The notes under the pieces were generated by a model. That model saw only the letters and a program-made list of their open reading frames with translations, did no database searches and was not told where the DNA came from. From Minisyncoccota bacterium (GTDB taxonomy: Bacteria; Patescibacteriota; Minisyncoccia; Phycocordibacterales; UBA9973), in NCBI GenBank assembly GCA_035510575.1, contig DATKGV010000008.1:4618-68617 (forward strand): a stretch of 64,000 nucleotides of DNA, in the 5' to 3' direction. A program made the translations under genes and the position numbers. This document shows positions 9,898-45,492 of this stretch, piece by piece. Every line of letters begins with the position of its first letter. Positions within the stretch are counted from its first letter, which is position 1.

Positions 9898-9954
9898 GTT
9901 TTTATTATATCCTGTAGTGAAATTTTTAATAAAATTCTACTACAGGATTATATG

Positions 9955-12642: not shown

Positions 12643-12683
12643 AATATTTTGTATTTTCTAGTCACTAGAAACTATAACCTAAT

Positions 12684-13806: not shown

Positions 13807-13921
13807 AGATAAAATGCTTTTATTGATAAGGCGATATCATGTGTTATTTCTTCTTGGCCTTCCCTAAAACGATTACGTTCGGGCAAAGAAGGAGAAACAC
13901 AGATCAGCTCAATATCAAACT

Positions 13922-13958
13922 CCCCCTATACTAGCAGAAGAGGTATTTAATGTCAATA
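13922..13958 (-). promoter_or_regulatory. internal sigma70-like promoter upstream of rpsZ (TTGACA-N17-tgcTAGTATA)
   Basis: Minus-strand 'TTGACATTAAATACCTCTTCTGCTAGTATAGG' in the unusually long (159 nt) rplE-rpsZ spacer. Confidence 0.5.
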
Positions 13959-13965
13959 AAAAGCC

Positions 13966-14520: not shown

Positions 14521-14754
14521 TTATTCATGTTTTGCCACATTTGATGCGTCAATAGGCATTGCTATATCCAATATCTGGCTTCTGTCCCCTTTTTTATTGG
14601 ACTTATGCGTTTTCTTTTTAAGATTAACGCCTTCAACGACGACTTGGTTGGAAGCAGGAATAGCCCTCAAGATCTTGCCCTTCTTGCCTTTGTTGCTTCC
14701 GGTGATAACTATTACATTGTCTCCTTTTTTGATTTTCATAATTTTTTGTGCCAT
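14521..14754 (-). CDS. rplX: 50S ribosomal protein L24
   Basis: KOW motif 'IKKGDNVIVITGSNKGKKGKI'. Confidence 0.85.
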   Translation of the reverse strand: MAQKIMKIKKGDNVIVITGSNKGKKGKILRAIPASNQVVVEGVNLKKKTHKSNKKGDRSQILDIAMPIDASNVAKHE

Positions 14755-14815
14755 AGGTCAGACCTAGGGACTTTCTTTTTTAAAATTTTGCCCCTAGGTC
14801 TGACCTATGGACCCT

Positions 14816-17286: not shown

Positions 17287-17319
17287 AATATAATATAAAT
17301 AAGCTCACAAAGAGCTCGC

Positions 17320-17356
17320 AGGATCATACTAGCAAATCTGAAAATAAAGTCAATCT
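17320..17356 (-). promoter_or_regulatory. internal sigma70-like promoter upstream of rpsS (same motif as the tuf promoter)
   Basis: Minus-strand 'TTGACTTTATTTTCAGATTTGCTAGTATG', about 30 nt upstream of the rpsS start. Confidence 0.55.
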
Positions 17357-17553
17357 TTTGGGTTTATATGAGAAATGCCCTGCTCTCACTGGAACACAGG
17401 GCATTAAAATTGCTCGAATCTTTAGCATTATGGGCAATTGAAAACTATTCTCTTCTAACTTAAGTGTTACAGGACTCACCTTTTAACACCGTCGGAATGT
17501 GCAATCTCAACGACTATCTTATATTAAAATAATAATTTGTCAACAACTAAAAT

Positions 17554-17964
17554 TCAATTCATCAGCGCCAAAATTTTCGGCAAGAAGATAATTAATCCAA
17601 CAATTATGGATATAAAAACTGTTAAAAGAACTGCGCCGGCAGCGACATCTTTCGTGTCGCGGGCATACGGATGATATGTTGGACTTGTCAGGTCTATGTC
17701 TATTTCAATGGCAGAGTTTATAGTTTCAGCCAGAATCACAAGACCTATTGTCAGTATAATCAATATCCATTCAATGCTTGAGATGCGCAAAATAAAACCT
17801 AAATATACGGCAAGACCTGCAAAAAACAAATGCCCCCAAGCATTATGACTGCTTTTTAGGAAAATACCAATGCCTCTGACGGCATTATTCGAGCTTCTGA
17901 TGCGGGATATTATTGAGAATTTCTTTTTTTCTGAAAGCCTTTGATACATGGTTGTATTATACAC
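17554..17964 (-). CDS. diacylglycerol kinase (DgkA)/undecaprenol kinase family small membrane protein
   Basis: 136 aa with three TM helices and an 'AETINSAIE' motif resembling the DgkA catalytic region. Unusual position between rplB and rpsS. Confidence 0.5.
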   Translation of the reverse strand: MYNTTMYQRLSEKKKFSIISRIRSSNNAVRGIGIFLKSSHNAWGHLFFAGLAVYLGFILRISSIEWILIILTIGLVILAETINSAIEIDIDLTSPTYHPYARDTKDVAAGAVLLTVFISIIVGLIIFLPKILALMN

Positions 17965-18015
17965 CTAAAAAATAAATTTCCTGACATAATGGCCAGGAAA
18001 TTTCATAAATTATTA

Positions 18016-18228
18016 TTATGCCCATCCGTATGGTGCTCCACGTTTTCTGGCACTAAGCATCGCTAGACGTTCATCTTCTTTTTGTTTTCTTTCTCTGGCA
18101 AAAATCGGATTTTGAGCTCTATTATAAGCATATGCTACTTTTTTGGTTTTGGATCTTTTTATGACCTCTTGAGTTTGATTACATTTGAAACGACCTCTTG
18201 AAAGAGGTTTAAAAGTTGATGGTTTCAT
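18016..18228 (-). CDS. small highly basic protein (70 aa), unknown; possibly an r-protein-like or nucleic-acid-binding protein
   Basis: Lys/Arg-rich ORF inside the r-protein cluster with no recognisable family motif. Confidence 0.3.
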   Translation of the reverse strand: MKPSTFKPLSRGRFKCNQTQEVIKRSKTKKVAYAYNRAQNPIFARERKQKEDERLAMLSARKRGAPYGWA

Positions 18229-18315
18229 ATTTTAATGTATTAAGAATTTTAATTGATATTACATTTATGAGAATCAAAAGTCAATTAAAAATACCCCGAA
18301 GGGTATTTTTGAAAA

Positions 18316-20163: not shown

Positions 20164-20217
20164 ATATTTGTTCCATAGGTCGGACTTGTGGCTAGCCACA
20201 AGTCCGACCTATGGCCT

Positions 20218-21215: not shown

Positions 21216-21294
21216 AAGTATAGGTTCTAGTTTCTAGGTTTTAGATTTTAGTATTTCTATTACTAGAACCTAGGCACTAGCTACTAACAACTGA

Positions 21295-22604: not shown

Positions 22605-22865
22605 TTATTTATAAATATCATGGTCGCCAACTCCCAATATAGCTGCTTTATTTTTATTTTCATATTGAAAAATAATTCGATAGGCATAATTAACTGAAAA
22701 ACCATAACAATTCTTATATTGGCCATTCAATTTATGAACTTTTAAAAGCTTATGATTCGAAATATTTTTAAACAGTTCAATTTTTTCTAAAACTTCTTCT
22801 TTCAAGTTATCATCTAATTTTCTAAAATTTCTAACAAAAATTGGAGCATAGATAATTTCAATCAT
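22605..22865 (-). CDS. type II toxin, RelE/ParE superfamily
   Basis: 86 aa. The C-terminal 'YRIIFQYENKNKAAILGVGDHDIYK' matches the RelE/ParE consensus (YRIIY...I..IGHRKDIY). Overlaps an upstream RHH gene by 1-2 nt. Confidence 0.6.
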   Translation of the reverse strand: MIEIIYAPIFVRNFRKLDDNLKEEVLEKIELFKNISNHKLLKVHKLNGQYKNCYGFSVNYAYRIIFQYENKNKAAILGVGDHDIYK

Positions 22866-22866
22866 A

Positions 22867-23088
22867 CTATTTGAATTTTTTAGCTAATTCCCTTAAATCT
22901 CCTGATAATCCCTTTCCCAGAGATATTTCTTTTTGAGCTATTAAAATCGCATTTACAGCTTCTTCTTCCGCAAGGCGGGTTATGGCGCGGCGAACGACAT
23001 CGGCTTTGTTCGAGCCATAGCCGGATTTTACCAGATTATTTAATTCCTTTTCTAATTGATAAGGCAATGGAACAGATATGGTAGTCAT
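22867..23088 (-). CDS. ribbon-helix-helix (CopG/ParD-like) antitoxin
   Basis: An 'MTTISVPLPYQLEKELNNLVKSGYGSNKADVVRRAI' RHH N-terminus. The ORF track start at 23121 runs into the operator palindrome, so the internal Met is the probable start. Confidence 0.55.
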   Translation of the reverse strand: MTTISVPLPYQLEKELNNLVKSGYGSNKADVVRRAITRLAEEEAVNAILIAQKEISLGKGLSGDLRELAKKFK

Positions 23089-23118
23089 AATATTTCTCAA
23101 TTTATTAAACTTATAATA

Positions 23119-23150
23119 CATATGATAATATCATATGATATTATCATATG
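23119..23150. promoter_or_regulatory. perfect 32-bp palindrome CATATGATAATATCATATGATATTATCATATG; candidate operator for the RHH antitoxin
   Basis: The sequence equals its own reverse complement and sits 30 bp upstream of the antitoxin start. Confidence 0.6.
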
Positions 23151-23210
23151 CAATAGCCCGGCAGTCCTAACCCATTCCGCATTTCTTGGTAATAAATATC
23201 AGCTTTCTAA

Positions 23211-23250
23211 CCACTAGCAAGAACCACTAGCAAGAACGGTTCTAGCTAGT
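23211..23250. repeat. REP-like palindromic repeat at the 3' side of the RAYT gene (one full 26-bp unit, 23225-23250, plus an upstream half unit)
   Basis: 'CCACTAGCAAGAAC|CACTAGCAAGAACGGTTCTAGCTAGT'. The unit forms a roughly 12-bp hairpin (ACTAGCAAGAAC / GTTCTAGCTAGT). Confidence 0.7.
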
Positions 23251-23928
23251 GGGTTCTATTATAAAATAATTCTCTATAAAATCTTTAAAAGATTGCTGTG
23301 ATTGGAAATAATCGGGAAATGCTTTTTTATTTAAAATATTACTTTCTATTCTGTCTGTGCCTATATAATCTTGATAACTGGAATATCTGTATGTTTCTAG
23401 AAAATCTTTCATTTCTTTATTATTTTTGTCTTTGTCTTTATCTTGTTTTTCCCAACCTGAAAACTTAATATCAAGTACATTTAGATGAATATATGCAAAA
23501 AGCTGCCGCATATAGTTATCATCTGCTTTTATACATTTTGATTTAAAGAGTCCGCCAAACAAAGCTCCTTGTCTTTGGTATTTTTTGTTAAAAAACATTG
23601 AATATCCTACACCTATCTTCCTCATGAACTTTGTTATTCCTCCATCTACTTCCTGCTTAACTAATATATGAAAATGATTATTCATAAGGCACCATGCGCC
23701 AATAGAAACTAGCGGCTCGCTTTTATTTAAGATCATTATTTCTTCATATCCCTTATGAAGAATATTTATTAAATTATCTAGTTTAATTGCTTCCTTATTA
23801 TTTGCAATATATAAAAGCATTTTAAATCTCTCGAAATCTCTTTCAAGCTTAAAAATGACTCTTTTATCTATACCCCTATTATAGATATGATAATATTCAC
23901 CGGTTATGAATGAATCTTTGCGAAGCAT
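23242..23928 (-). CDS. IS200/IS605-family Y1 (HUH) transposase, REP-associated tyrosine transposase (RAYT)-like
   Basis: 228 aa with 'YYHIYNRGIDKRVIF', HUH motif 'NHFHILV' and the catalytic-Tyr region 'AYIHLNV' (YIHxNP-type). Flanked on both sides by the same palindromic repeat. Confidence 0.65.
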   Translation of the reverse strand: MLRKDSFITGEYYHIYNRGIDKRVIFKLERDFERFKMLLYIANNKEAIKLDNLINILHKGYEEIMILNKSEPLVSIGAWCLMNNHFHILVKQEVDGGITKFMRKIGVGYSMFFNKKYQRQGALFGGLFKSKCIKADDNYMRQLFAYIHLNVLDIKFSGWEKQDKDKDKNNKEMKDFLETYRYSSYQDYIGTDRIESNILNKKAFPDYFQSQQSFKDFIENYFIIEPTS

Positions 23929-23954
23929 GTTTACAGTATAACAAACACCTTAGC

Positions 23955-24116
23955 CACTAGCAAGAACGGTTCTAGCTAGTCCCCAAGGCGGTTTTTATCT
24001 TATACACTAGCAAGAACGGTTCTAGCTAGTCTCGGCAATTCCAGCTACCCACTAGCAAGAACGGTTCTAGCTAGTCCTCACTATATATTACCTATAGCAA
24101 GAAAGGTCTAGCTAGT
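23955..24116. repeat. array of four REP-like 26-bp palindromic units (CACTAGCAAGAACGGTTCTAGCTAGT; the last is degenerate) separated by 19-24 nt unique spacers, at the 5' side of the RAYT gene
   Basis: Exact copies at 23955-23980, 24005-24030 and 24050-24075. Degenerate copy at 24095-24116. Confidence 0.7.
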
Positions 24117-24123
24117 CTCATCA

Positions 24124-24156
24124 AAAACCGCCCCATCAAACATAGGGGCGGTTTTT
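24124..24156. terminator. bidirectional Rho-independent terminator (AAAAACCGCCCC...GGGGCGGTTTTT)
   Basis: GC-rich 7-bp stem flanked by A-run and T-run. Followed by a second palindrome TAGCAAGGACCGTCCTTGCTA (24161-24181) related to the REP core. Confidence 0.6.
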
Positions 24157-24200
24157 GATTTAGCAAGGACCGTCCTTGCTAATCTGTAGCTTTAGCTTTT

Positions 24201-25403
24201 TTAATAGCAAAGTGTTTTGACTTCAAGAGCAGGGCCTGAACCTTTTACTGTTATAGTAGGATCTTCACTATTACGAAAAGTGATATACGACGAACCAGCA
24301 TCTATAATTGTTCTTATAGGACTTGATTCACTTATATACAAACTATGATCATAATCATCTGGTGCATTAATGAAGAGTGTATATTCTCCTTCAATGTGAG
24401 TAGCATTATTTGAAACATAACCATTAACAAAAACTTTACAAATACTGCCAAAGAAATTACTTGTAGTAGGGTGAGGCAAAAAATAATGGGCAGTATTATC
24501 ATATATACGTGTAACATAAGCGAATCGATCGGTAATATTCGCATTATTAATACAATTAGCTCCATTTATGTCACAGTATGCATTTGCACCAACATTTTCG
24601 CTAGATGTGGTGGGTTTAACGTATGTTCCCGTATCTGTCCAGGGACCACTTCCGGGTGTTCCCCAACTAGCAAGACCAGTAGCGTCTGAAGTAAGAACTT
24701 TGCCTACGCCGGGAGTTCCGCCAGAGATTTTAATGGTTCCTCCGATAGTAACTGCACCGCCGTCTGGCTGAAGTATAAGCGTCCTTGGGCCTGATCCAGA
24801 AGATGGATAATAATTGCCGGCATTTATAAACGCATTATCAGCAGCAGTGTTATATCCCAATTCCAATCTTGCGCCAGCTCCATTCGACGAATTGCCGATA
24901 ATAAGCTGACCTCCGGTATAATGCGAAGCGTCTGGTTTCGTATATGTTCCAGTATCTTTGATTTCCAAGTCCGCGCCAGGAGCAGTTGTGCCAATGCCAG
25001 TATTGCCAGTAATAAAGACATTTTGCATAAACTGCGCATTTTTCCTGGCAATAAGAGCATATGTGTCTATTCCTGTGTTTTTAAGCAAGTTCGTGTACGA
25101 TGTGATATAACCATTTGTATCTTTAATTCCCGCACCTGTTGATAATGTTGTAGGTGTAATTGAAGTAGTATAAGTATATCCATTATAAGCCGAAATAGCG
25201 CCTAAATTCAACGTCCCAATTTTATTCTGAACAGCAGCGCCAATATTTATAGGGGTATCTGTATTATTTGTAGGAGGCGTACCTGTAGCAGGAGTCCAAC
25301 CTTTAATAGTAGAATCACCTGCAAATACATATCTAACCCCCGAAACAATCATTATAGCCAAAACCAAAGCGAGCGCTATTTGTGTGAACTTTTTTGTATT
25401 CAT
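24201..25403 (-). CDS. secreted/membrane-anchored Gly/Thr-rich protein with phage-tail-fibre-like motifs
   Basis: N-terminal TM/signal segment and a 'TGNTGIGTTAPGADLEIKDTG' motif of the kind common in tail-fibre and surface proteins. Several Cys near the C-terminus. Confidence 0.45.
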   Translation of the reverse strand: MNTKKFTQIALALVLAIMIVSGVRYVFAGDSTIKGWTPATGTPPTNNTDTPINIGAAVQNKIGTLNLGAISAYNGYTYTTSITPTTLSTGAGIKDTNGYITSYTNLLKNTGIDTYALIARKNAQFMQNVFITGNTGIGTTAPGADLEIKDTGTYTKPDASHYTGGQLIIGNSSNGAGARLELGYNTAADNAFINAGNYYPSSGSGPRTLILQPDGGAVTIGGTIKISGGTPGVGKVLTSDATGLASWGTPGSGPWTDTGTYVKPTTSSENVGANAYCDINGANCINNANITDRFAYVTRIYDNTAHYFLPHPTTSNFFGSICKVFVNGYVSNNATHIEGEYTLFINAPDDYDHSLYISESSPIRTIIDAGSSYITFRNSEDPTITVKGSGPALEVKTLCY

Positions 25404-25620
25404 AATTTATATAGTTATTAATATTTAGTGCCTGTATTATATCACATATAATGATTTATTTATACAAATGCGAATTATGGAAAGGTGTGGAAAAGTAAAA
25501 TTGATAGCTAATTATCAAACTAAAACAACAAAAAAGTAAGCGTAAATCGCTTACTTTTTTTTATTAAAAATCCCAATCAAAGCTTACCATAAAGATATAC
25601 TCTTTCAGCACTAGCCGATT

Positions 25621-25821
25621 CTATCTCAATAGAACTATTTTTGACATTTTGCTTTTCCGTAATTTTTCATTGACATCCATTCTTTTATAAAGATTAAAAG
25701 AATTTGAGCCAATAGACGCTGTTCTCATTACAAAATATTCATAACCTTCTTTCTTTGCCCATTCTAAACGTTTTTGAACCAACTTTGATCCTATGCCTAG
25801 ATGTCGATATTTATAATCCAC
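25621..25821 (-). pseudogene. GNAT acetyltransferase C-terminal fragment (truncated remnant)
   Basis: 66 aa containing GNAT motif A 'RHLGIGSKLVQKRLEWAKKEGY' but lacking the N-terminal ~80 aa of the fold. Confidence 0.45.
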
Positions 25822-25905
25822 TGCAGGAAGGACAAGATACTGGTTGGAAAAAATTCTGGAAAGAACGATTTAATTTCTTGAAAATCTGGTTAAAAGATAA
25901 AAATT

Positions 25906-25936
25906 AAACCCGCTTCATAATTAAATGAAACGGGTT
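25906..25936 (-). terminator. Rho-independent terminator for the 25966-26472 gene
   Basis: Hairpin AACCCG(N17)CGGGTT followed by a T-run on the minus strand. Confidence 0.4.
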
Positions 25937-25965
25937 AGATTTTAGTTCTTTAAAACGCAGAAACA

Positions 25966-26472
25966 TTATGGAAGCATTGTATGTTTTTGTGTAGCACGAT
26001 AGCATCCGTTATTGTCACAATAAGACCATACAAATTCATCCATTGTTAACGTCCAAATTTTAAGAGGGGCACCCAAAGATTGATTTATTTGTTTACCATC
26101 TGTACTCATAGTATAAGATGCTTGAAAATAAACTGATCCATTAGCATGATAACTCCAAGTACTATCAGCAGAATATAAATCATAATCAGTGTGAGCAAAT
26201 GGTATTGGATATTCAGTCCAATCATTAGCTCCGGGACCACTGCTTTTTTCTGCTTTGAAAGGATACCATTTCCCTGACATCAGGCACTTTTTCAAGCTAT
26301 CTAATGGCGATGCAATTTCATGCATAACTATATCTGCAACTGGCTTTTCTGCCATTGGGATATAGATTGTATCCTTAACCGTAATTATTCTCATACACGA
26401 CACTTTCTGTGCCATTAAGTTTGTGGCTCCTATTGCTATAATAGTAGCCAAAAAAAATAAAATCTTTTTCAT
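25966..26472 (-). CDS. secreted hypothetical protein
   Basis: N-terminal signal peptide 'MKKILFFLATIIAIGATNLMA'. No recognisable domain. Confidence 0.45.
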   Translation of the reverse strand: MKKILFFLATIIAIGATNLMAQKVSCMRIITVKDTIYIPMAEKPVADIVMHEIASPLDSLKKCLMSGKWYPFKAEKSSGPGANDWTEYPIPFAHTDYDLYSADSTWSYHANGSVYFQASYTMSTDGKQINQSLGAPLKIWTLTMDEFVWSYCDNNGCYRATQKHTMLP

Positions 26473-26484
26473 GGCTTAGAGTTT

Positions 26485-27009
26485 TTAATTTTTTATTATT
26501 TTTTTTGTTATTATAGCACCGTCATTCGTTTTTAAACGAAGAATATAGGCGCCTACTTTTAGATTCTGACCATTGATTATAAAGTCTTCAGTTGACTGAC
26601 TTGTCAATTGAGTACTTACAATCTGACCAGTAAGAGAGAATACATCAATACTTTTCACTTCTAAATTAGTCCTAAGTGAGAAATTACTTGATGAAGGGTT
26701 GGGATACACACTGACTTGATCAGTATTAGTTACAGTTTTAACATCGGTTGCCGATGTGTCATAAATGAAACTAAATCCAATAATATCAATGTCTTTTCCT
26801 GCATTGGTGTGGATAACAAAATTAAATTCACCACTAGAAGCTATTGGCAATGAAATATCCTTAAGGAGAAATTTCTGGTAGCTACCATCTGCAAGTACAG
26901 CACTAACTGTATTGACGTCATCTTGAGCGCTTATCCTTGATAAGCCAAATGACAAAAGTATCGTAACGAGTACGAACACTCTTTTCAGAAAGAGAATTTT
27001 TGCTTTCAT
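26485..27009 (-). CDS. secreted protein with a C-terminal beta-sandwich sorting-domain-like tail (T9SS type-A-like 'YPNP...' segment)
   Basis: Signal peptide. The C-terminus 'VYPNPSSSNFSLRT...GAYILRLKTNDGAIITKKIIKN' resembles Por/T9SS C-terminal sorting domains. Confidence 0.4.
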   Translation of the reverse strand: MKAKILFLKRVFVLVTILLSFGLSRISAQDDVNTVSAVLADGSYQKFLLKDISLPIASSGEFNFVIHTNAGKDIDIIGFSFIYDTSATDVKTVTNTDQVSVYPNPSSSNFSLRTNLEVKSIDVFSLTGQIVSTQLTSQSTEDFIINGQNLKVGAYILRLKTNDGAIITKKIIKN

Positions 27010-27234
27010 ATTTTCAGTTTTATTTATTTTTCAAAAATCAAATTTATATTAGAATTAGAACACGGAATACTCTTATTGACAAGTATAGGGCATTTTTAGG
27101 CATTTGTCAAGCTCAAAGGCCTTTGGCTGTGGAAAGAGTGGATAAAGGTTAGAAGGGGTTTCCAAACAAAAAGCCATATATTATATGGACTTTATGGTTT
27201 AAATCGTCCAAATTGCGATTATTATAGCTAACTA

Positions 27235-27519
27235 TTATCTTTGTAATTTGCGCTCTATTCGCCCAAAACGAATAAGCAGATTATCAAATTCGTGCCTAGG
27301 GACGAATCGGTCACCAAGATCCAATACGTCGCGGCGAGTGGCCTTCAAGTTTTCTTTTACCTCATTAAGATCTATTTTAATATCGGCAATATCCTTATCA
27401 ACGCTTTCAAATCTTTTATCAACGCCGTCAAATCTTTTATCAACACTTTCAAACCCCTTGGCAACCATAATCGCCAAATTGTCTATTGTCATGTTCTTTT
27501 TATTTGTAACCTTTTTCAT
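27235..27519 (-). CDS. small hypothetical protein with internal 'VDKRF(D/E)(G/S)VDK' repeats
   Basis: 94 aa with probable coiled coil and internal tandem repeats. Confidence 0.35.
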   Translation of the reverse strand: MKKVTNKKNMTIDNLAIMVAKGFESVDKRFDGVDKRFESVDKDIADIKIDLNEVKENLKATRRDVLDLGDRFVPRHEFDNLLIRFGRIERKLQR

Positions 27520-27545
27520 ATATTAAAACAGTTATTGATTATTTA

Positions 27546-27845
27546 CTATTTTGACAAGCTTTCAAGCTCTTTCAGACGGTCAGCGTCGCTTATCTTGGCG
27601 GCAGTTGAGGATTTGTTCAATTTACTCAGGTCCGAAAGGCGTTCTTGCTCGGTTGCCGTTACTGGCTTTGACTCTTCAGCAAGCTTCTGTAATTCTTGTT
27701 CTCTGATCAAGTCGGTATTGGCCATTTGGGACTTTCTATAAAAAACAAAGTACCAGATAGCGACAATAATGAGCAAAAACAATATGATGGCCGTGATGAC
27801 AATATTCTTGCTAGATTTGACGTTATTCATTTGATTTGGTTCCAT
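27546..27845 (-). CDS. small membrane-anchored coiled-coil protein
   Basis: Single TM helix 'IVITAIILFLLIIVAIWYFVFY' followed by a charged helical region. Confidence 0.4.
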   Translation of the reverse strand: MEPNQMNNVKSSKNIVITAIILFLLIIVAIWYFVFYRKSQMANTDLIREQELQKLAEESKPVTATEQERLSDLSKLNKSSTAAKISDADRLKELESLSK

Positions 27846-27889
27846 ATGATTATTGTAAACCCACGCCTGTGGCGGGGCAAGATTAACTA

Positions 27890-29482
27890 TTAAAATTCTT
27901 TAAAGATTGGCTTGACTACTTTCTTGCAAGTGGCAGGATTTGTATGGTCATTATCGGTGTGGCAACTGTCATCTCCGCAATCAATCTTACCATCACCATT
28001 ATTATCTATGCCATGCAAGCCATTCGGACAAATTTGAGGGCCTACAGTTATAGTTACTGTATCCGAACCGCTTCCGTATGTGTTTGAACACGTCATTGTA
28101 TAGCTGTTTGTATAACCAATTGAATCGGTTGCAGGAGGTAATGATACTTGAGCATTACTATTAGGTGCTGTATTAGATGTCCATGTTGGTGCTGAACAAG
28201 AAGTAGCATTTGGACTAAGCCATGAAAGAGTTGATGTTCCTCCAGCTGAATTAAATGATGGCGGAGTTGCCGTAAGCGTAACAGTCGGAGGTTGAGGAGT
28301 GATTACGCTGACAACAACTGAATTAGAAACTATCGTTGTACCGCCTTTTGTGCATTGAATTGTGAAAGTTGTATTTTCAGTTATAGGTTTTGTGTTTTCA
28401 CCTGGAGGATAAGCTAAATTAGCGGGTTCTGACTTAGTAGGATTCTGCCATAAACCGCTTCCAGGAACACATGAATATGAGGAGTCCAAGTTTGATGTCC
28501 ATGTAAGATTAGAAGTTCCATTTTTAGGCACGTTCGTAGGGTTGGCAAACAAAGAAACATATGGATATGATGATGCGCAAATGGTTCCATTCCAAGTAGA
28601 ACCGGACTGGCAAGTAGCATTGGCAGTAGAAGTAGCGACATCAATGGAATCTATGCCGTTTATATTCTGTGAAAGATGGAATGTTTCAGATCCGAAGGAA
28701 ATAGTAAATGCCTGTAAACCAGAACTGCCATCTGGTTTATAATAAGAACTGCTATCTGCTTTATGATAATTGGAAGTTAAAGAGTAAGCGCCAACAGGAT
28801 CTGTAGTGTTCCATGTTACAGTTGTGGAACATGAAGAAGCGCCCGCAGGAATAGTGCAATCCGGCGTAGTTAGCGTGCTAATAGCTGGCATTATACTAAC
28901 ATGATAATCATTAGCTCCAGAACAATCACTGGTGCTGCAACTTGATGCTGAAATCCAGCCGACTACATTACCGCCCCAAGCGTATCCAGTCACAATACCG
29001 GTAGCCAGATTGGCATTAAAACCCCAAGAGTTGCTATCTCCATCGCTATCAGAACTTAAAGCAATAAGACCGTTCCACCCACTAGATCCATCGCTGCCAG
29101 AAATGGTCTTTGCCCATCCTGAAAATTTTCCAGTTGACGACATATTAGGTTGGCATTTTGTTCCGCAAACAGCTAAATCATTGCTGGTAAATTCACCGAT
29201 ATTAAACGAAATCCAGCCGACATTGGAAGACCAAGCATATCCTGAAAGATTGCCACTCGTTGGATTAATACTTACGCCATAGCTAGTACCGGGACACGTA
29301 GTAACGTCTGTACAATTATTAAATGAAATCCAGCCGATATTGGAGGACCAAGCGAAACCGTACATCTGCCTATCGCTGTCATGACCTGCCATAGCATTAT
29401 TAGCCTGGACAATCGTCTTGCCAAAAACAAAGATGGCACAGATGGAAAGAATGGCTATTGTAAAAATATATTTAGCGCGCAT
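27890..29482 (-). CDS. secreted repeat protein (4-5 copies of a ~45-aa 'GYAWSSN(V/I)GWISFN' module) with Cys-rich C-terminal domain
   Basis: Signal peptide 'MRAKYIFTIAILSICAIFVFG'. Repeated 'AWSSNIGWISFN' modules. C-terminal 'CPNGLHGIDNNGDGKIDCGDDSCHTD'. Confidence 0.5.
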   Translation of the reverse strand: MRAKYIFTIAILSICAIFVFGKTIVQANNAMAGHDSDRQMYGFAWSSNIGWISFNNCTDVTTCPGTSYGVSINPTSGNLSGYAWSSNVGWISFNIGEFTSNDLAVCGTKCQPNMSSTGKFSGWAKTISGSDGSSGWNGLIALSSDSDGDSNSWGFNANLATGIVTGYAWGGNVVGWISASSCSTSDCSGANDYHVSIMPAISTLTTPDCTIPAGASSCSTTVTWNTTDPVGAYSLTSNYHKADSSSYYKPDGSSGLQAFTISFGSETFHLSQNINGIDSIDVATSTANATCQSGSTWNGTICASSYPYVSLFANPTNVPKNGTSNLTWTSNLDSSYSCVPGSGLWQNPTKSEPANLAYPPGENTKPITENTTFTIQCTKGGTTIVSNSVVVSVITPQPPTVTLTATPPSFNSAGGTSTLSWLSPNATSCSAPTWTSNTAPNSNAQVSLPPATDSIGYTNSYTMTCSNTYGSGSDTVTITVGPQICPNGLHGIDNNGDGKIDCGDDSCHTDNDHTNPATCKKVVKPIFKEF

Positions 29483-29570
29483 ACTGCCATTATTGTACCA
29501 TATATAATAATTTATAAACACAAATCAAAGTTATTTTGCGGTGTGGAAAACTATTTTTCTTTGTATTAAT

Positions 29571-29625
29571 CTCCCCCTGCCAAGGGGGAGATGCCGGAGG
29601 CAGAGGGGGTTGTATTAATTAATTT
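29571..29625. repeat. GC-rich repeat element, partial copy A (first hairpin only)
   Basis: CTCCCCCTGCCAAGGGGGAGATGCCGGAGGCAGAGGGGGTTGTATTAATTAATT in the divergent promoter region between the 27890-29482 gene and nusA. Confidence 0.7.
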
Positions 29626-29761
29626 CTTGACCATAAGAATCACTTATAGTAGTATTCAATGTGTAAGTCCGTTCTCGAAACCGGACTTTTTTTATAAACA
29701 ATTTAATAAAAGGTATTTATATTTTAGCCAGCAACTAAAACCTAAAACCTAGAAACTAACA

Positions 29762-30934
29762 ATGTTAGACCTAAAAACAATGAGGTCGGCTCTGGAACAG
29801 CTTGAAACGGAGCGCAAGATACCTCGCGAGAAGATTATAGACGCGATTGAGCAAGCCCTGGCCGCCGCCTACAAGAAGGACTACGGCAAAAAAGGCCAGA
29901 TAATCCGCGCAAAAATAGATATTGAAACGGGTAAGACGGAGTTTTATCAAGTTAAAATCGTTGTCGACGAATCGCTTGTGCGAATGACGAAAGAAAACGA
30001 GGAAGAGGAAGAGATTGCCGAAGACGACGATCGCGTCCGCTACAATGAAGAGCATCATATCCTCCTTTCCGATGCCAAGAAAATAAAAAACGGCGCCAAA
30101 CTTGAAGAAGAAATAATTTTCCCGCTTGAAACCAAGGAGGACTACGGGCGCATTGCCGCTCAGACGGCCAAGCAGGTTATCATACAGAAGATTCGCGAAG
30201 CGGAGCGCGGCGCTGTCATTGAAGAATACGGGAGCAAGGAAGGCGAAATTATCAACGGAATTATTTCAAAAGTTGAAAGAGGCATCGTTTATATTGACTT
30301 CAATCGCGCAACTGGAATAATCCTGCCCGAAGAGCAGATTCCCGGCGAATTTTATAAGCGCGGAGAGCGAATTCGCGCCTATTTGTATTCCGTTGAAGAG
30401 ACGCCTCACGGCGTAAATCTCAAGCTTTCCCGCACTCATCCTCAATTCATTGAAGGATTATTCGCCATGGAAGCTCCCGAAATAGCATCAGGTGTCGTAG
30501 AAATAAAAGCGATTGCTCGCGAAGCAGGTTCACGTTCTAAGATTGCCGTATATTCAAATGACGAGCATGTTGATCCGGTCGGATCATGCGTCGGACAGAG
30601 AGGAGTTCGCGTAACGACAGTCATGAGCGAATTGAACGGCGAGAAAATAGATATTATCCCATGGTCGCCCGATATCGCCCAGTATGTTTCAAATTCAATC
30701 TCGCCGGCTCGAGTCCTTGATATAAATATAATTGACGAAGAGCATAAAGCCATAGTTGAAGTGGCGCCCGATCAATTGTCGCTTGCCATCGGCAAAGGCG
30801 GGCAGAATGTGCGCCTGGCCGCAAAATTAACCGGCTGGAGAATAGATATCAAAGCCGGCAATTCCGAAGAAATTATTTCAAGCGAAAATGATATACTGGA
30901 TGATGGCATCGTGGATGATGGCACAGATGCGTAA
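29762..30934 (+). CDS. nusA: transcription termination/antitermination factor NusA
   Basis: 390 aa with N-terminal NusA domain, S1-like and tandem KH regions ('LAIGKGGQNVRLAAKLTGWRIDI'). Confidence 0.85.
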   Translation: MLDLKTMRSALEQLETERKIPREKIIDAIEQALAAAYKKDYGKKGQIIRAKIDIETGKTEFYQVKIVVDESLVRMTKENEEEEEIAEDDDRVRYNEEHHILLSDAKKIKNGAKLEEEIIFPLETKEDYGRIAAQTAKQVIIQKIREAERGAVIEEYGSKEGEIINGIISKVERGIVYIDFNRATGIILPEEQIPGEFYKRGERIRAYLYSVEETPHGVNLKLSRTHPQFIEGLFAMEAPEIASGVVEIKAIAREAGSRSKIAVYSNDEHVDPVGSCVGQRGVRVTTVMSELNGEKIDIIPWSPDIAQYVSNSISPARVLDINIIDEEHKAIVEVAPDQLSLAIGKGGQNVRLAAKLTGWRIDIKAGNSEEIISSENDILDDGIVDDGTDA

Positions 30935-44334: not shown

Positions 44335-45384
44335 CTATTTACTGTGAAATTTCTTATGAACATCGCGAAGCTGTTTGTCTGTTATATGAGTATATATCTG
44401 AGTCGTGGCAATATTCGCATGGCCTAACATCATTTGAACTGAACGAATATCTGCTCCATTTGAAAGCAAGTCAGTGGCAAATGAGTGGCGAATAATGTGA
44501 GGAGTAACTTTCTTTGAAATTCCGGCCTTTATCGCATAAAACTTTACGATACGCTCTATAGAACGAGGTGCGAGCCTGTTTCCCACCGAAGCAAGGCTTA
44601 GGTTTTTACCTAAGCCTTGCTTCGGTGAATTATGCGAATACTGAACAAAAAGTGGCTGATCCATATCTTTTCTAGATTTTAAGTAATTACGAATGGCATC
44701 TTTGGCACTATCAGACAGGAATACAACGCGAACTTTCTCTCCTTTACCGCGAATAGAAAATTCATCTTTTGATAAATCAATATCTCGATCAAGAGAACAT
44801 AATTCAGACAGACGCAATCCAGTTGAGAAAAATAATTCAAGAATGGCTTTATCACGCAGAATTCTTATTGTTTTGCTGGCAATGGAATTTTGAAGTCCTC
44901 GGATCTCCTCGCTATTACTTTCTTTGTTTTTTGAAATAGCTCGGCCAGACTTCAAAATTCCATTGCCAGCTTCACTCATATTGGGAGCATTAAGAAGTCT
45001 TGTTAATTCTTCAGCAGAGATTAAATCAAGCGAGCGCTCTTTTATCTTTGCCAGTTCTATCCTATCCGGCGAGAGGGAAGTTATGCCGCGCTTCATCAGA
45101 TATTTAAGAAACGAACGAAGCGCAATAAGATGATAATTTTGAGTGTTTTTCTTCAAAGTGCCGGCATGTTGCCCGCGAATTTTAACTCCGGGTTGGCGAT
45201 TCAAATATAATCTAAACTCCCGTATTTTGTCGTCAGTTATTCCATTTGGTTCGGAAATCTTGGCAAAGGCAAAAAATCTGGAAAGATAATAGTCATAATT
45301 ATTTACTGTCTTTAAGCTGTTGCCTTTCTCGATTTCCACATGTTCGAGAAATTCTCTTTTTAATTGTTCAATACGTGCTGCCAT
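44335..45384 (-). CDS. tyrosine site-specific recombinase XerC/XerD-like (with two in-frame palindromic insertions)
   Basis: C-terminal catalytic region 'HIIRHSFATDLLSNGADIRSVQMMLGHANIATTQIYTH'. The start is taken at the internal 'MAARIEQLKREF', typical of Xer N-termini. Confidence 0.7.
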   Translation of the reverse strand: MAARIEQLKREFLEHVEIEKGNSLKTVNNYDYYLSRFFAFAKISEPNGITDDKIREFRLYLNRQPGVKIRGQHAGTLKKNTQNYHLIALRSFLKYLMKRGITSLSPDRIELAKIKERSLDLISAEELTRLLNAPNMSEAGNGILKSGRAISKNKESNSEEIRGLQNSIASKTIRILRDKAILELFFSTGLRLSELCSLDRDIDLSKDEFSIRGKGEKVRVVFLSDSAKDAIRNYLKSRKDMDQPLFVQYSHNSPKQGLGKNLSLASVGNRLAPRSIERIVKFYAIKAGISKKVTPHIIRHSFATDLLSNGADIRSVQMMLGHANIATTQIYTHITDKQLRDVHKKFHSK

Positions 45385-45492
45385 GATAGAAAAACATGTA
45401 ATGCCTGCCCGACCTTTGGAGGGTCGTAAAACAATTATAGCATAAAATAAAACATTGCATTTTCTACTAAAATGTGCTAACATTGAGGTGTA

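What the first reader, a model, noticed from the sequence alone, without database searches (positions are those of the whole stretch)
14751..14810. Perfect palindromic hairpins (CCATAGGTC[A/G]GAC family and others) occupy spacers inside the ribosomal-protein operon
rplX|rplN spacer: a 19-bp perfect stem CCATAGGTCAGACCTAGGG...CCCTAGGTCTGACCTATGG (14751-14810). rplD|rplC spacer: a 42-nt perfect palindrome CCATAGGTCGGACTTGTGGCTAG|CTAGCCACAAGTCCGACCTATGG (20173-20214) that spuriously extends the rplD ORF. Additional hairpins lie at rpsJ|tuf (21220-21263), secY|adk (9909-9948) and rplR|rplF (12654-12671). Two share the CCATAGGTCRGAC arm, so they are a family. Candidates are RNase III or other processing sites, translational coupling or attenuation structures, or miniature inserted elements.
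Basis: seen in the sequence. Interest (0 to 1): 0.6.

Follow-up and report, generated by a model that had tools for sequence, protein, structure and literature searches.

The report
REPIN-like palindromes in ribosomal-protein operon
The two perfect hairpins between ribosomal-protein genes are copies of a small palindromic DNA element found across the ultra-small CPR/Patescibacteria bacteria, tied to a REP-type tyrosine transposase gene and inserted both between genes and, in frame, inside essential genes.

Summary
Windows 14751-14810 and 20173-20214 are perfect hairpins (RNA fold -42.6 and -37.6 kcal/mol, z about -8.5 and -8.9), and both recur unchanged in an independent assembly.

They are not operon-specific signals. 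Motif-only scans found 147 unique copies in CPR genomes and metagenomes, and none in 2.9 million viral contigs. The unit is the 19-bp palindrome CCATAGGTC-N-GACCTATGG. It occurs alone (87 copies) or as an inverted doublet with an A-rich spacer (60 copies), as in this window.

In 15 of 117 motif-selected loci the palindrome brackets, and usually also sits inside, a Y1/HUH transposase gene. That gene is 42% identical to window ORF 23242-23928, whose only curated NCBIfam match is the REP-associated tyrosine transposase. The window's own copy is bracketed by a different palindrome.

Related genomes have empty spacers of 1-5 nt at the same gene junctions. About 27% of copies lie in frame inside genes such as uvrB, xerD, rnhB and ligA.

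Best reading: a REP/REPIN-RAYT-type element family, apparently not yet described in CPR. It has Rickettsia-palindromic-element-like coding insertions and a hot spot in ribosomal-protein spacers. A secondary role in mRNA processing is neither excluded nor shown.

The parts
14751..14810 (-). CCATAGG-family doublet (REPIN-like) in the rplN|rplX spacer. It has two 19-nt arms, CCATAGGTCAGACCTAGGG and CCCTAGGTCTGACCTATGG, each nearly palindromic on its own. The 22-nt loop is A-rich on the mRNA strand.
   Evidence: Orthologous doublets occur in L049, L079 and L102, a solo copy in L070, and empty sites in L096 and L116.
14740..14750 (-). A-rich 3' tail CACAAAAAATT between the doublet and the rplX start codon (ATG at 14739-14737). 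It is probably part of the inserted unit.
   Evidence: The flank consensus NACAAA lies on the sense side of intergenic doublets. Empty spacers lack it.
14811..14815 (-). 5' flank AGGGT between the rplN stop codon (14818-14816) and the doublet. It is G-rich, unlike the other spacers of the operon.
20173..20214 (-). Compact CCATAGG-family doublet in the rplC|rplD spacer. The outer 13 nt of each arm are canonical. The inner stem has diverged (CTTGTGG/CCACAAG) but is fully compensated. It folds as a 19-bp stem with a CUAG loop.
   Evidence: The orthologous element in L030 differs at 5 stem positions, all compensated. L036 has an empty site.
20164..20172 (-). A-rich 3' tail AACAAATAT before the rplD start codon (ATG at 20163-20161).
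20215..20217 (-). 5' flank AGG between the rplC stop codon (20220-20218) and the element.
23242..23928 (-). Y1/HUH transposase gene, RAYT-like, called 'type A' here. It is a paralogue (42% identity) of the 'type B' genes that are bracketed by CCATAGG palindromes in other CPR genomes. The HUH motif NHFH and the YIHLN tyrosine motif are conserved.
   Evidence: Pfam Y1_Tnp scores 29.8 bits against a cutoff of 23. The only NCBIfam match is REP_Tyr_transpos. BLASTP E = 3e-54 to the L087 gene. The motifs are invariant in the alignments.
23955..24075 (-). Three exact copies of the 26-nt imperfect palindrome ACTAGCTAGAACCGTTCTTGCTAGTG (24050-24075, 24005-24030, 23955-23980) just upstream of the Y1 gene. 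This is the REP-like partner of this Y1 gene and is a different sequence from CCATAGG.
   Evidence: Homologous type-A genes in L145-L147 are bracketed by GCAAGAAC-SG-TTCTTGC palindromes.
23225..23250 (-). Fourth exact copy of ACTAGCTAGAACCGTTCTTGCTAGTG at the 3' end of the Y1 gene. The gene's TAG stop codon lies inside the repeat.
24161..24181 (.). Separate palindrome TAGCAAGGAC-GG-TCCTTGCTA of a third related class (AGGAC-NG-TCCT), next to the repeat array.
   Evidence: The same class brackets the Y1 gene in L144.

Best explanation
The two hairpins are copies of a REP/REPIN-type palindromic element family that is widespread in CPR/Patescibacteria.

Anatomy. The basic unit is a 19-bp palindrome, CCATAGGTC-N-GACCTATGG. 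The window's copies are inverted doublets: two units plus a short spacer, which fold into one long hairpin in single-stranded DNA or in mRNA.

Proposed mechanism (inferred). By analogy with REP/RAYT and IS200/IS605 systems, the elements are probably bound as single-strand hairpins and moved or copied by a dedicated Y1/HUH tyrosine transposase. The genes for that enzyme in other CPR genomes are bracketed by the same palindrome.

In this genome. The elements were inserted into spacers that are otherwise 1-15 nt long, between co-transcribed ribosomal-protein genes. They probably persist there for three reasons:
- the A-rich loop lies on the sense strand, so no U-tract follows a stem on the sense strand;
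- the A-rich 3' tail leaves an unstructured stretch before the next start codon;
- inter-arm pairing is kept perfect.
Their visible side effect is a spurious in-frame ATG or GTG that lengthens the rplX and rplD ORFs.

Shown here: family membership, insertion relative to empty sites, in-frame coding copies, and the association with Y1 genes.

Inferred only: catalysis by the Y1 protein, the single-strand mechanism, and the reasons the elements are tolerated.
For: 1. Dispersed family. A two-arm pattern hit 23 loci in Nomurabacteria, Paceibacterota, RAAC4_OD1 and Saccharibacteria genomes. After de-duplication there are 87 solo copies and 60 doublets.

2. Hairpin constraint. The central N is complementary between arms in 54 of 58 doublets, using all four pair types. 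In solo copies the same base is used about evenly, so its identity is free. 41 of 58 doublets have perfect 19-bp arms. The window and L030 elements at rplC|rplD differ at 5 positions, all compensated.

3. Insertion. rplN|rplX is TAA-TATT-ATG in L096 and TAA-T-ATG in L116. It holds a solo copy in L070 and doublets in the window, L049, L079 and L102. rplC|rplD is empty in L036.

4. Transposase link. 19 of 117 motif-selected loci carry a Y1 gene. In 15 the palindrome lies about 35 nt upstream, in frame inside (SHRSDLW after the HUH motif), and over the stop codon.
- These genes are 42% identical to window ORF 23242-23928.
- All 8 aligned members match only NCBIfam REP_Tyr_transpos, best E = 6.9e-12.
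- JGI names some homologues 'REP element-mobilizing transposase RayT'.

5. Each Y1 clade has its own palindrome:
- window and L145-147: GCAAGAAC-SG-TTCTTGC;
- L144: CTAGGAC-TG-TCCTAG;
- L148 (protein also recorded on a 693,530-bp contig, the length of the RAAC4 record): GCATAGGTCNGACCTATGC;
- L021 (Saccharibacteria): CCAAGGCC-N-GGCCTATG doublets.

6. The protein in L148 is also on record on a 693,530-bp contig, the length of the RAAC4_OD1 genome record. That genome holds dispersed doublets L006, L009 and L012.

7. Published REPIN features match: inverted doublets, a spacer, common compensatory changes, and distinct RAYTs each with its own REP (PMC3116915).
Against: - The window does not contain a type-B Y1 gene. 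Its own Y1 gene is bracketed by a different palindrome, so the cognate enzyme for the two hairpins in this genome is not shown.
- The Y1 proteins score far below NCBIfam's RAYT cutoff (31 bits against 80). They give no sequence hit to any solved structure. The AlphaFold model was too poor to test the fold (pLDDT 46).
- The REP hallmark tetranucleotide GTAG or CGTC is absent.
- Copy number is low: about 3-4 strict doublets per 0.7-Mb genome, and no degenerate copies in the 8-kb flanks.
- 21 of 60 doublets sit in S10/spc operon spacers.
- The 19-mer is identical across class-level lineages at orthologous sites.

The last three points fit a selected host function at least as well as a selfish element. 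No transposition intermediates or insertion polymorphisms within a population were seen; the two assemblies compared are identical.
Confidence: 0.75

Rival explanations
1. The doublets are primarily host-selected RNA structures that punctuate ribosomal-protein operons. On this reading a roughly 20-bp perfect stem between cistrons is cut by RNase III, or blocks 3' exonucleases. That would uncouple or tune expression of the downstream protein (L24, L4, S8). The link to transposase genes would then be their evolutionary origin only.
For: - 21 of 60 unique doublets, plus 2 solo copies, lie in S10/spc operon spacers, which are roughly 2-3% of a CPR genome. One locus (L102) has four.
- The A-rich loop is on the sense strand in 35 of 35 doublets whose gene strand could be called.
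- Stems are 19-21 bp and perfect.
- The same spacers are occupied in distant lineages: rpsZ|rpsH carries the element in about 10 loci, including a Saccharibacteria contig.
- Other genomes carry unrelated hairpins at rplN|rplX (L006, L044, L017).
Against: - Close relatives have empty spacers at the same junctions, so the structure is dispensable.
- The identical sequence lies in frame inside uvrB, xerD, rnhB, ligA and the Y1 gene, where cleavage would destroy the mRNA.
- Mismatches in stems are not enriched for G.U on the sense strand: 9 G.U-type against 5 A.C-type.
- Both strands keep Watson-Crick pairing, as expected for a constraint at the DNA level.
- No Rfam family matches.
Confidence: 0.17
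2. The 19-bp palindrome is a double-stranded DNA operator or parS-like site for a dimeric DNA-binding protein. On this reading, doublets are simply two adjacent sites.
For: - Each arm is itself a 9-N-9 palindrome.
- Solo sites are the commonest form (87 of 147).
- A few doublets keep palindromy within each arm rather than complementarity between arms (L046, L086).
- Copy number is low.
- The window lies near a GC-skew switch that may be the origin of replication.
Against: - Complementarity of the otherwise free central base between the two arms (54 of 58) has no explanation for independent duplex sites.
- Inner-stem divergence is compensated between arms, not within them (window 20173-20214, L021, L006).
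- The palindrome sequence changes with the Y1 clade it brackets.
- The sites overlap stop codons and sit in frame in coding regions.
Confidence: 0.05
3. The hairpins arise locally and independently, by replication template switching that makes inverted duplications at permissive junctions. They would then not be copies of a common element.
For: Different, unrelated perfect hairpins occupy the same permissive sites in different genomes. Examples are rplN|rplX in L044 and L017, and the two xerD sites in this window.
Against: Independent origin cannot give an identical 19-mer in more than 140 loci from different classes of bacteria. It also cannot explain the shared loop and tail consensus.
Confidence: 0.03

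Closest known systems
REP/REPIN elements with RAYT (REP-associated tyrosine transposase) of Proteobacteria (Nunvar 2010; Bertels & Rainey 2011, PMC3116915; Ton-Hoang 2012)
   Same: - The unit is a short palindrome.
- Inverted doublets with a spacer form a long hairpin.
- Compensatory changes across the stem are common.
- Solo copies occur alongside doublets.
- A Y1/HUH gene is bracketed by its own palindrome.
- Different Y1 clades carry different palindromes, and two clades appear to share a genome.
- The nearest curated protein model is REP_Tyr_transpos.
   Different: - There is no GTAG or CGTC tag.
- The unit is a perfect 9-N-9 palindrome.
- There are a few copies per genome, not hundreds.
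- About 27% of copies are inside genes, in frame, including one inside the transposase gene itself.
- Copies cluster strongly in ribosomal-protein operon spacers.
- The proteins fall far below the RAYT equivalog cutoff.
- The hosts are 0.6-1 Mb CPR genomes.
Rickettsia palindromic elements (RPE; Ogata et al. 2000; reviewed in PMC10969869)
   Same: Palindromic repeats are inserted in frame into protein-coding genes of a reduced genome, with the ORF kept open. They add a short peptide at tolerated sites, here 7-24 aa. The UvrB insert lies between two segments that align collinearly to solved UvrB.
   Different: - There is no sequence relation.
- Units are 19-60 nt rather than roughly 100-150 nt.
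- A candidate cognate transposase is identifiable here, unlike for RPE.
- Most copies are intergenic.
IS200/IS605 insertion sequences and their palindrome-associated derivatives (PATEs/MITEs)
   Same: The Y1 gene plus its flanking hairpins spans about 730 nt, which is IS200-sized. There are asymmetric extra nucleotides outside the hairpin (RGGN on one side, NACAAA on the other). Orientation is strand-specific.
   Different: The left and right hairpins are the same palindrome. The gene appears in conserved single contexts rather than as multiple identical copies, but this was not fully tested.
Intercistronic RNase III sites of phage T7 early mRNA, and REP stabilisers in E. coli operons (malE-malF)
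   Same: A long stable stem lies between co-transcribed cistrons.
   Different: No processing data exist for these elements. T7 sites have internal loops and are not dispersed repeats.

Membership tests
REP/REPIN-RAYT system | Short palindromic unit repeated at many loci of a genome | tested here: met
   147 unique copies across 140 loci. At least 3-4 strict doublets occur in each of three genomes or MAGs (LBRL01, AWSN01, JBAYKP01). Copy number is low by REP standards.
REP/REPIN-RAYT system | Inverted doublets with a spacer that fold into one hairpin, with compensatory changes | tested here: met
   58 doublets were scored: 41 have perfect 19-bp arms, and the central base is complementary in 54 of 58. 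The window and L030 elements differ at 5 compensated positions. The minimum-free-energy fold is the long hairpin.
REP/REPIN-RAYT system | A Y1/HUH transposase gene flanked by the same palindrome | tested here: met
   This holds in 15 of 117 motif-selected loci and in L148, whose protein is also on record on a 693,530-bp contig, the length of the RAAC4 record. It does not hold in this window for the CCATAGG family: the window's Y1 gene is flanked by ACTAGCTAGAACCGTTCTTGCTAGTG.
REP/REPIN-RAYT system | Protein passes the curated RAYT model (NCBIfam NF047646, cutoff 80 bits) | tested here: not met
   The window protein scores 31 bits. The best of 8 relatives has E = 6.9e-12. This is the only NCBIfam family hit and no IS200 model matches. 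Pfam Y1_Tnp passes for the window protein (29.8 against 23) and is marginal for type B (24.2 and 21.5).
REP/REPIN-RAYT system | Conserved GTAG or CGTC tetranucleotide at one end of the REP (PMC3733652) | tested here: not met
   The unit and its flanks read TTTC-CCATAGGTCNGACCTATGG-GAAA, with no GTAG or CGTC.
REP/REPIN-RAYT system | Copies confined to extragenic space | tested here: not met
   39 of 147 copies lie in long ORFs with the frame kept open. This is still a three-fold depletion, since 84% of bases fall in such ORFs.
REP/REPIN-RAYT system | Each RAYT type present as a single copy per genome; the enzyme cleaves and joins REP single-stranded DNA | not testable with these tools
   Whole genomes could not be fetched. 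Matching contig lengths suggest that types A and B share contigs (176,700 and 80,110 bp).
HUH/Y1 transposase fold | HUH motif, catalytic tyrosine, and the fold itself | tested here: inconclusive
   NHFH and Y-x-H-L-N are invariant in the alignments. The AlphaFold model had pLDDT 46, so no fold search was run. PDB sequence searches were empty.
Rickettsia palindromic elements | In-frame insertion in coding genes with the ORF preserved | tested here: met
   Inserts occur in uvrB, xerD, rnhB, ligA, mnmA, Jag, a methyltransferase and the Y1 gene. The UvrB insert of about 24 aa lies between residues that align to 427 and 426 of solved UvrB.
Rickettsia palindromic elements | Sequence and size class of RPE families | tested here: not met
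   Units are 19-60 nt with an unrelated sequence. This comparison rests on knowledge of RPE; no RPE model was run.
RNase III processing site | Double-stranded RNA stem of about two helical turns | tested here: met
   Folding gives stems of 19 bp (20173-20214) and 21-23 bp (14751-14810).
RNase III processing site | Mapped cleavage in the stem | not testable with these tools
   No transcript data were available.
Intrinsic terminator | GC-rich stem followed by a U-tract on the transcribed strand | tested here: not met
   The scan flags both elements only on the + strand, which is antisense. The sense-strand tails are A-rich.
Known RNA families (Rfam 15), including ribosomal-protein leaders | Match at the gathering threshold | tested here: not met
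   Only 5 tRNAs are reported in the whole window.

The most novel reading that the evidence does not exclude
CPR bacteria carry an ancient, low-copy REPIN-RAYT-like system in which the host has co-opted the 19-bp palindrome. On this reading:
- doublets act as intercistronic punctuation, for processing or stabilisation, preferentially in ribosomal-protein operons;
- copies are translated as 7-24-aa inserts in essential enzymes and in the transposase itself;
- perfect arm complementarity is actively restored, by hairpin-templated correction or re-copying by the Y1 enzyme, rather than by slow compensatory mutation.

This would explain identical 19-mers at orthologous sites across class-level lineages, and the near absence of decayed copies.
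Probability: 0.2. Interest if true: 0.75.

Novelty: new variant of a known kind. Interest (0 to 1): 0.55.

Why it matters
CPR/Patescibacteria genomes are among the most streamlined known and are usually described as repeat-poor. This finding shows a conserved palindromic element family with a candidate dedicated transposase spanning several CPR classes. The family sits in the most conserved operon of the genome and, in frame, inside DNA-repair and recombination genes.

Practical consequences:
- The elements create false start codons (rplX and rplD here) and apparent protein 'insertions'. These can mislead gene calling, ribosomal-protein phylogenies and structure prediction for CPR genomes.
- They are simple, searchable markers for studying REPIN-RAYT-type co-evolution in uncultivated lineages.
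- They give a concrete, testable case of whether such hairpins are used for mRNA processing in organisms whose spacers lack Shine-Dalgarno sequences.

Five full-text searches in the held library found no description of the motif, or of REP/RAYT elements, in CPR (for RPE).

Tried and rejected
- Census of in-frame inserts. A search of the protein database with the encoded peptide failed.
- Structure of the Y1 protein. The 24-sequence alignment was too shallow. AlphaFold gave pLDDT 46 and pTM 0.43, so no fold search was run. Single-sequence and profile searches of PDB sequences returned only noise.
- RNA-level selection. G.U-type mismatches on the sense strand were not significantly enriched over A.C-type (9 against 5), so the test did not discriminate.
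- Rfam. No family matches the hairpins.
- Decayed copies. None with up to 3 mismatches occur in the 8-kb flanks of 23 genome loci.
- Viral contigs. The motif is absent, so there is no sign of a phage vector.
- Intrinsic terminator. Rejected, because no sense-strand U-tract follows the stems.
- Ribosomal-protein autoregulatory leader. Rejected, because the same sequence occurs in unrelated loci and the spacers are empty in relatives.
- A type-B Y1 gene in the window. hmmsearch finds only ORF 23245-23949.
- Are the other listed hairpins family members? They are not.
Full report
**1. What is in the window**

The window has 39% G+C. A long run of minus-strand genes covers tuf, the S10 and spc ribosomal-protein operons, secY and adk. 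An identical protein in the public collection is named as coming from a Candidatus Paceibacterota MAG, so the source is a CPR/Patescibacteria bacterium.

Most spacers in the operon are 1-15 nt long, A/T-rich and without a Shine-Dalgarno sequence. Two spacers stand out:
- rplN|rplX, 76 nt: TAA-AGGGT-[14810..14751]-CACAAAAAATT-ATG.
- rplC|rplD, 54 nt: TAA-AGG-[20214..20173]-AACAAATAT-ATG.

The repeat finder confirms perfect arms of 19 nt with a 22-nt loop, and of 21+21 nt. As RNA they fold at -42.6 and -37.6 kcal/mol, z = -8.5 and -8.9, with no shuffle folding as well. The shared arm CCATAGGTCRGAC is far above chance: 7 matches against 0.85 expected.

Independent gene calls on the same DNA start at MKIKK (72 aa) and METQ (221 aa). 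An independent assembly from another sample is 99.97% identical over 13 kb and contains both elements unchanged.

**2.

- The secY|adk hairpin is significant (z = -7.2). It directly follows a CATATAAT -10 box. It recurs after a terminator and promoter in one other genome (L001), so it looks like an adk leader.
- The tuf|rpsJ structure is weak (z = -2.4). It is built from a CTAG-rich motif that recurs before start codons in other CPR ribosomal-protein operons.
- The rplF|rplR hairpin is no better than shuffled sequence.

**3. The motif is a dispersed family across CPR**

A scan of one genome per species with both 13-nt arms (chance expectation about 0.07) returned 23 loci. They came from Nomurabacteria, Paceibacterota, RAAC4_OD1 and Saccharibacteria, plus one contig binned as Runella. 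The same pattern found nothing in 2.9 million viral contigs, which serves as a rough negative control.

After removing duplicates there are 147 elements, 87 solo and 60 doublets. Each arm is itself a 9-N-9 palindrome, CCATAGGTC-N-GACCTA[T/G]GG. Solo copies usually extend to TTTC-...-GAAA. Doublets have either a spacer of about 20 nt with consensus RCAAAAnTTTAAAAnAnAAAGN, or a 2-4-nt spacer in the compact form.

**4. The long hairpin is under constraint**

The central base is used about evenly in solo copies (A 23, G 23, T 23, C 18). In doublets it is complementary between the two arms in 54 of 58 cases, using all four pair types. Neither search pattern required this.

Where the inner half of an arm departs from the consensus, the other arm carries the exact complement (window 20173-20214, L006, L016, L021). 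The window and L030 elements sit at the same rplC|rplD junction in genomes whose EF-Tu proteins are 94% identical. They differ at five stem positions, all compensated.

A few doublets (L046, L086) instead keep palindromy within each arm. Both the small and the long hairpin therefore seem to matter. Mismatches are not enriched for G.U on the sense strand, so the constraint is not visibly specific to RNA.

**5. They are insertions**

- At rplN|rplX, L096 reads TAA-TATT-ATG and L116 reads TAA-T-ATG. L070 has a solo copy. The window, L049, L079 and L102 have doublets.
- At rplC|rplD, L036 is empty.
- At rpsZ|rpsH, the window is empty (9 nt), while about ten other loci carry the element.

Filled sites also carry RGG(N) on the 5' side and an NACAAA-rich tail on the 3' side that empty sites lack. 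The inserted unit is therefore asymmetric and slightly larger than the palindrome.

**6. Copies inside genes**

39 of 147 elements lie in long ORFs with the frame open through the element. They read as HRSDLG/W, PRSDLW or [IL]GxTYG, the two frames of the palindrome that avoid its TAG. Hosts include uvrB (six loci, same site), xerC/D (two sites), rnhB, ligA, mnmA, Jag, a methyltransferase, and the transposase gene itself.

The L002 UvrB aligns to solved UvrB as two collinear blocks, query 1-94 to residues 334-427 and query 119-233 to residues 426-540. This leaves a 24-aa insert made of the element.

Elements are still about three-fold depleted in coding sequence: 27% of copies, against 84% of bases in such ORFs. 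The L004 copy is 43 nt long, and the downstream frame is correct only if the element is read through. That argues against removal from the mRNA.

**7. Link to a transposase**

Many metagenome loci show three copies spaced about 310 and 400 nt apart. These bracket and interrupt a gene of about 225 aa with a ...LMPNHFHIILISHRSDLWE...FMRK...YIHLNP motif.

A profile search of all held loci finds this gene in 19 of 117 motif-selected loci. In 15 of them the palindrome lies within 120 nt of, or inside, the gene. The common layout is about 35 nt before the start codon, in frame just after the HUH motif, and over the stop codon, where the TAG of CCATAGG is the stop.

The window's ORF 23242-23928 is a 42%-identical paralogue (E = 3e-54).
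- It passes Pfam Y1_Tnp, 29.8 bits against 23.
- The only NCBIfam family matched by it, and by all seven aligned relatives, is the REP-associated tyrosine transposase (best E = 6.9e-12). All scores are well below the equivalog cutoff.
- JGI's annotation names some homologues 'REP element-mobilizing transposase RayT'.
- The family is large: 1,722 and 6,070 database proteins for the two queries.

**8. Each transposase clade has its own palindrome**

- The window's gene is bracketed by four exact copies of ACTAGCTAGAACCGTTCTTGCTAGTG, three upstream and one over the stop codon.
- Homologues at 70-76% identity are bracketed by GCAAGAAC-SG-TTCTTGC variants (L145-L147) or CTAGGAC-TG-TCCTAG (L144).
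- In L148 the gene is bracketed by GCATAGGTCNGACCTATGC. The same protein is also on record on a 693,530-bp contig, the length of the RAAC4 record.
- A Saccharibacteria gene is bracketed by compact CCAAGGCC-N-GGCCTATG doublets, with an internal copy.

Matching contig lengths suggest that the two clades can sit on one contig (176,700 and 80,110 bp). They also suggest that RAAC4_OD1 (693,530 bp), which has three dispersed doublets, encodes the CCATAGG-type gene. This is the REP/REPIN-RAYT pattern described for Pseudomonas and E. coli: inverted doublets that form hairpins, common compensatory changes, and distinct RAYTs each with its own REP (PMC3116915, read).

**9. What does not fit a plain selfish-element picture**

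- Copy number is low, and decayed copies are essentially absent near the copies found.
- The same 19-mer sits at orthologous junctions in lineages as far apart as Saccharibacteria and Nomurabacteria.
- 21 of 60 doublets are in S10/spc spacers, which are a few percent of the genome. One locus has four.
- The A-rich loop is on the sense strand in 35 of 35 doublets where the gene strand could be called.

The orientation bias has two untested explanations. First, it may reflect selection against the orientation that would place a U-rich tract after a stem: the terminator scan flags both window elements only on the antisense strand. Second, it may reflect strand-specific insertion relative to replication, as in IS200/IS605, because the operon lies on the strand that GC skew suggests is leading. 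The hot spot could reflect a target preference, tolerance of hairpins at stop-start junctions (other genomes hold unrelated hairpins there), or a real role in mRNA processing.

**10. Verdict**

The elements are best filed as working like REP/REPIN-RAYT systems. As a formal member they meet the architectural criteria: the unit, the doublet hairpin, compensation, and bracketing of a Y1 gene. They fail three others: the GTAG/CGTC tag, extragenic restriction, and the curated RAYT protein cutoff. I therefore rate them a new variant of a known kind, with Rickettsia-palindromic-element-like behaviour inside genes.

Searches of the held literature found no paper with the motif in this context. None combined REP, RAYT, REPIN or IS200 with CPR lineages.

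Still inferred rather than shown: catalysis by the Y1 protein, the presence of a CCATAGG-type Y1 gene in this particular genome, and any effect on expression of L24 and L4.

Noticed in passing
window 44335-45483 (-), hairpins 44584-44627 and 44875-44970: The xerC/D-like recombinase gene carries two in-frame perfect hairpins of unrelated sequence: 20+20 nt with a 4-nt loop, and 23+23 nt with a 50-nt spacer. They sit at exactly the two positions where other CPR genomes carry CCATAGG doublets or solo copies (L046, L113, L066, L092, L123). Either several hairpin families target the same permissive sites, or the elements drift while staying perfectly paired.
   Followed up: partly
window 23225-24181: The Y1 transposase gene is bracketed by four exact copies of ACTAGCTAGAACCGTTCTTGCTAGTG, and its stop codon lies inside the last copy. 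A further palindrome, TAGCAAGGACGGTCCTTGCTA, lies at 24161-24181. None of these occur elsewhere in the 64 kb.
   Followed up: yes
window 17287-18315: The S10 operon is interrupted between rplB and rpsS. The interruption holds a terminator hairpin (18287-18310), a 70-aa ORF with no family match, a diacylglycerol kinase gene (17554-17964) and two sigma-70-like promoters. About 200 nt of possibly structured leader precede rpsS.
   Followed up: partly
window 13807-13965: The 159-nt rplE|rpsZ spacer contains a TTGACA...TAGTAT promoter-like site and a G+C-richer leader. It may be an internal promoter and regulatory leader for the distal spc genes. In other genomes this region also holds CCATAGG doublets (L040, L058, L102).
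   Followed up: no
window 9909-9948: The secY|adk hairpin follows a CATATAAT -10 box and is conserved in L001 after a terminator and promoter. Three other genomes have only the terminator and promoter. It looks like an adk 5'-leader structure of unknown role.
   Followed up: partly
window 21216-21294; L001, L017, L070, L080: A CTAG-rich motif (ACTAGAACCTA / CTAGAAACTAGAACCTA) lies just before the rpsJ start codon. It recurs in ribosomal-protein spacers of several CPR genomes, twice in L070. Its function is unknown.
   Followed up: partly
window about 24000-30000: GC skew changes from negative to positive, and gene orientation switches at about 29.5 kb (divergent ORFs 27890-29521 on the minus strand and 29762-30934 on the plus strand). 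This may be the replication origin, which would put the ribosomal-protein operon on the leading strand. Purine loading of the mRNA strand could also explain the skew.
   Followed up: partly
window 22605-23155: A HigB/RelE-like toxin and a ribbon-helix-helix antitoxin pair lie between the Y1 gene and tuf. A 21+21-nt near-palindrome (23114-23155) lies over the antitoxin start and is probably its operator.
   Followed up: no
L010, L071, L105, L135; L033, L065, L093: Another palindrome class, ACATAGGAC-CG-TCCTATGT / AAGGAC-SG-TCCTT, is scattered in the fetched CPR loci. It sometimes lies next to CCATAGG copies, giving hybrid pairs in L071 and L105.
   Followed up: no
L014 (contig binned as Runella) and L090 (G+C-rich contig): Isolated matches to the motif occur outside an obvious CPR context. 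They could be mis-binned contigs, chance hits, or transfer.
   Followed up: no
L102 3141-3198: One doublet at rplN|rplX has the same central base (T, T) in both arms, and shares its flanks with the solo copy in L070. It looks like a tandem duplication of a solo unit rather than an inverted doublet, so doublets may arise in more than one way.
   Followed up: no
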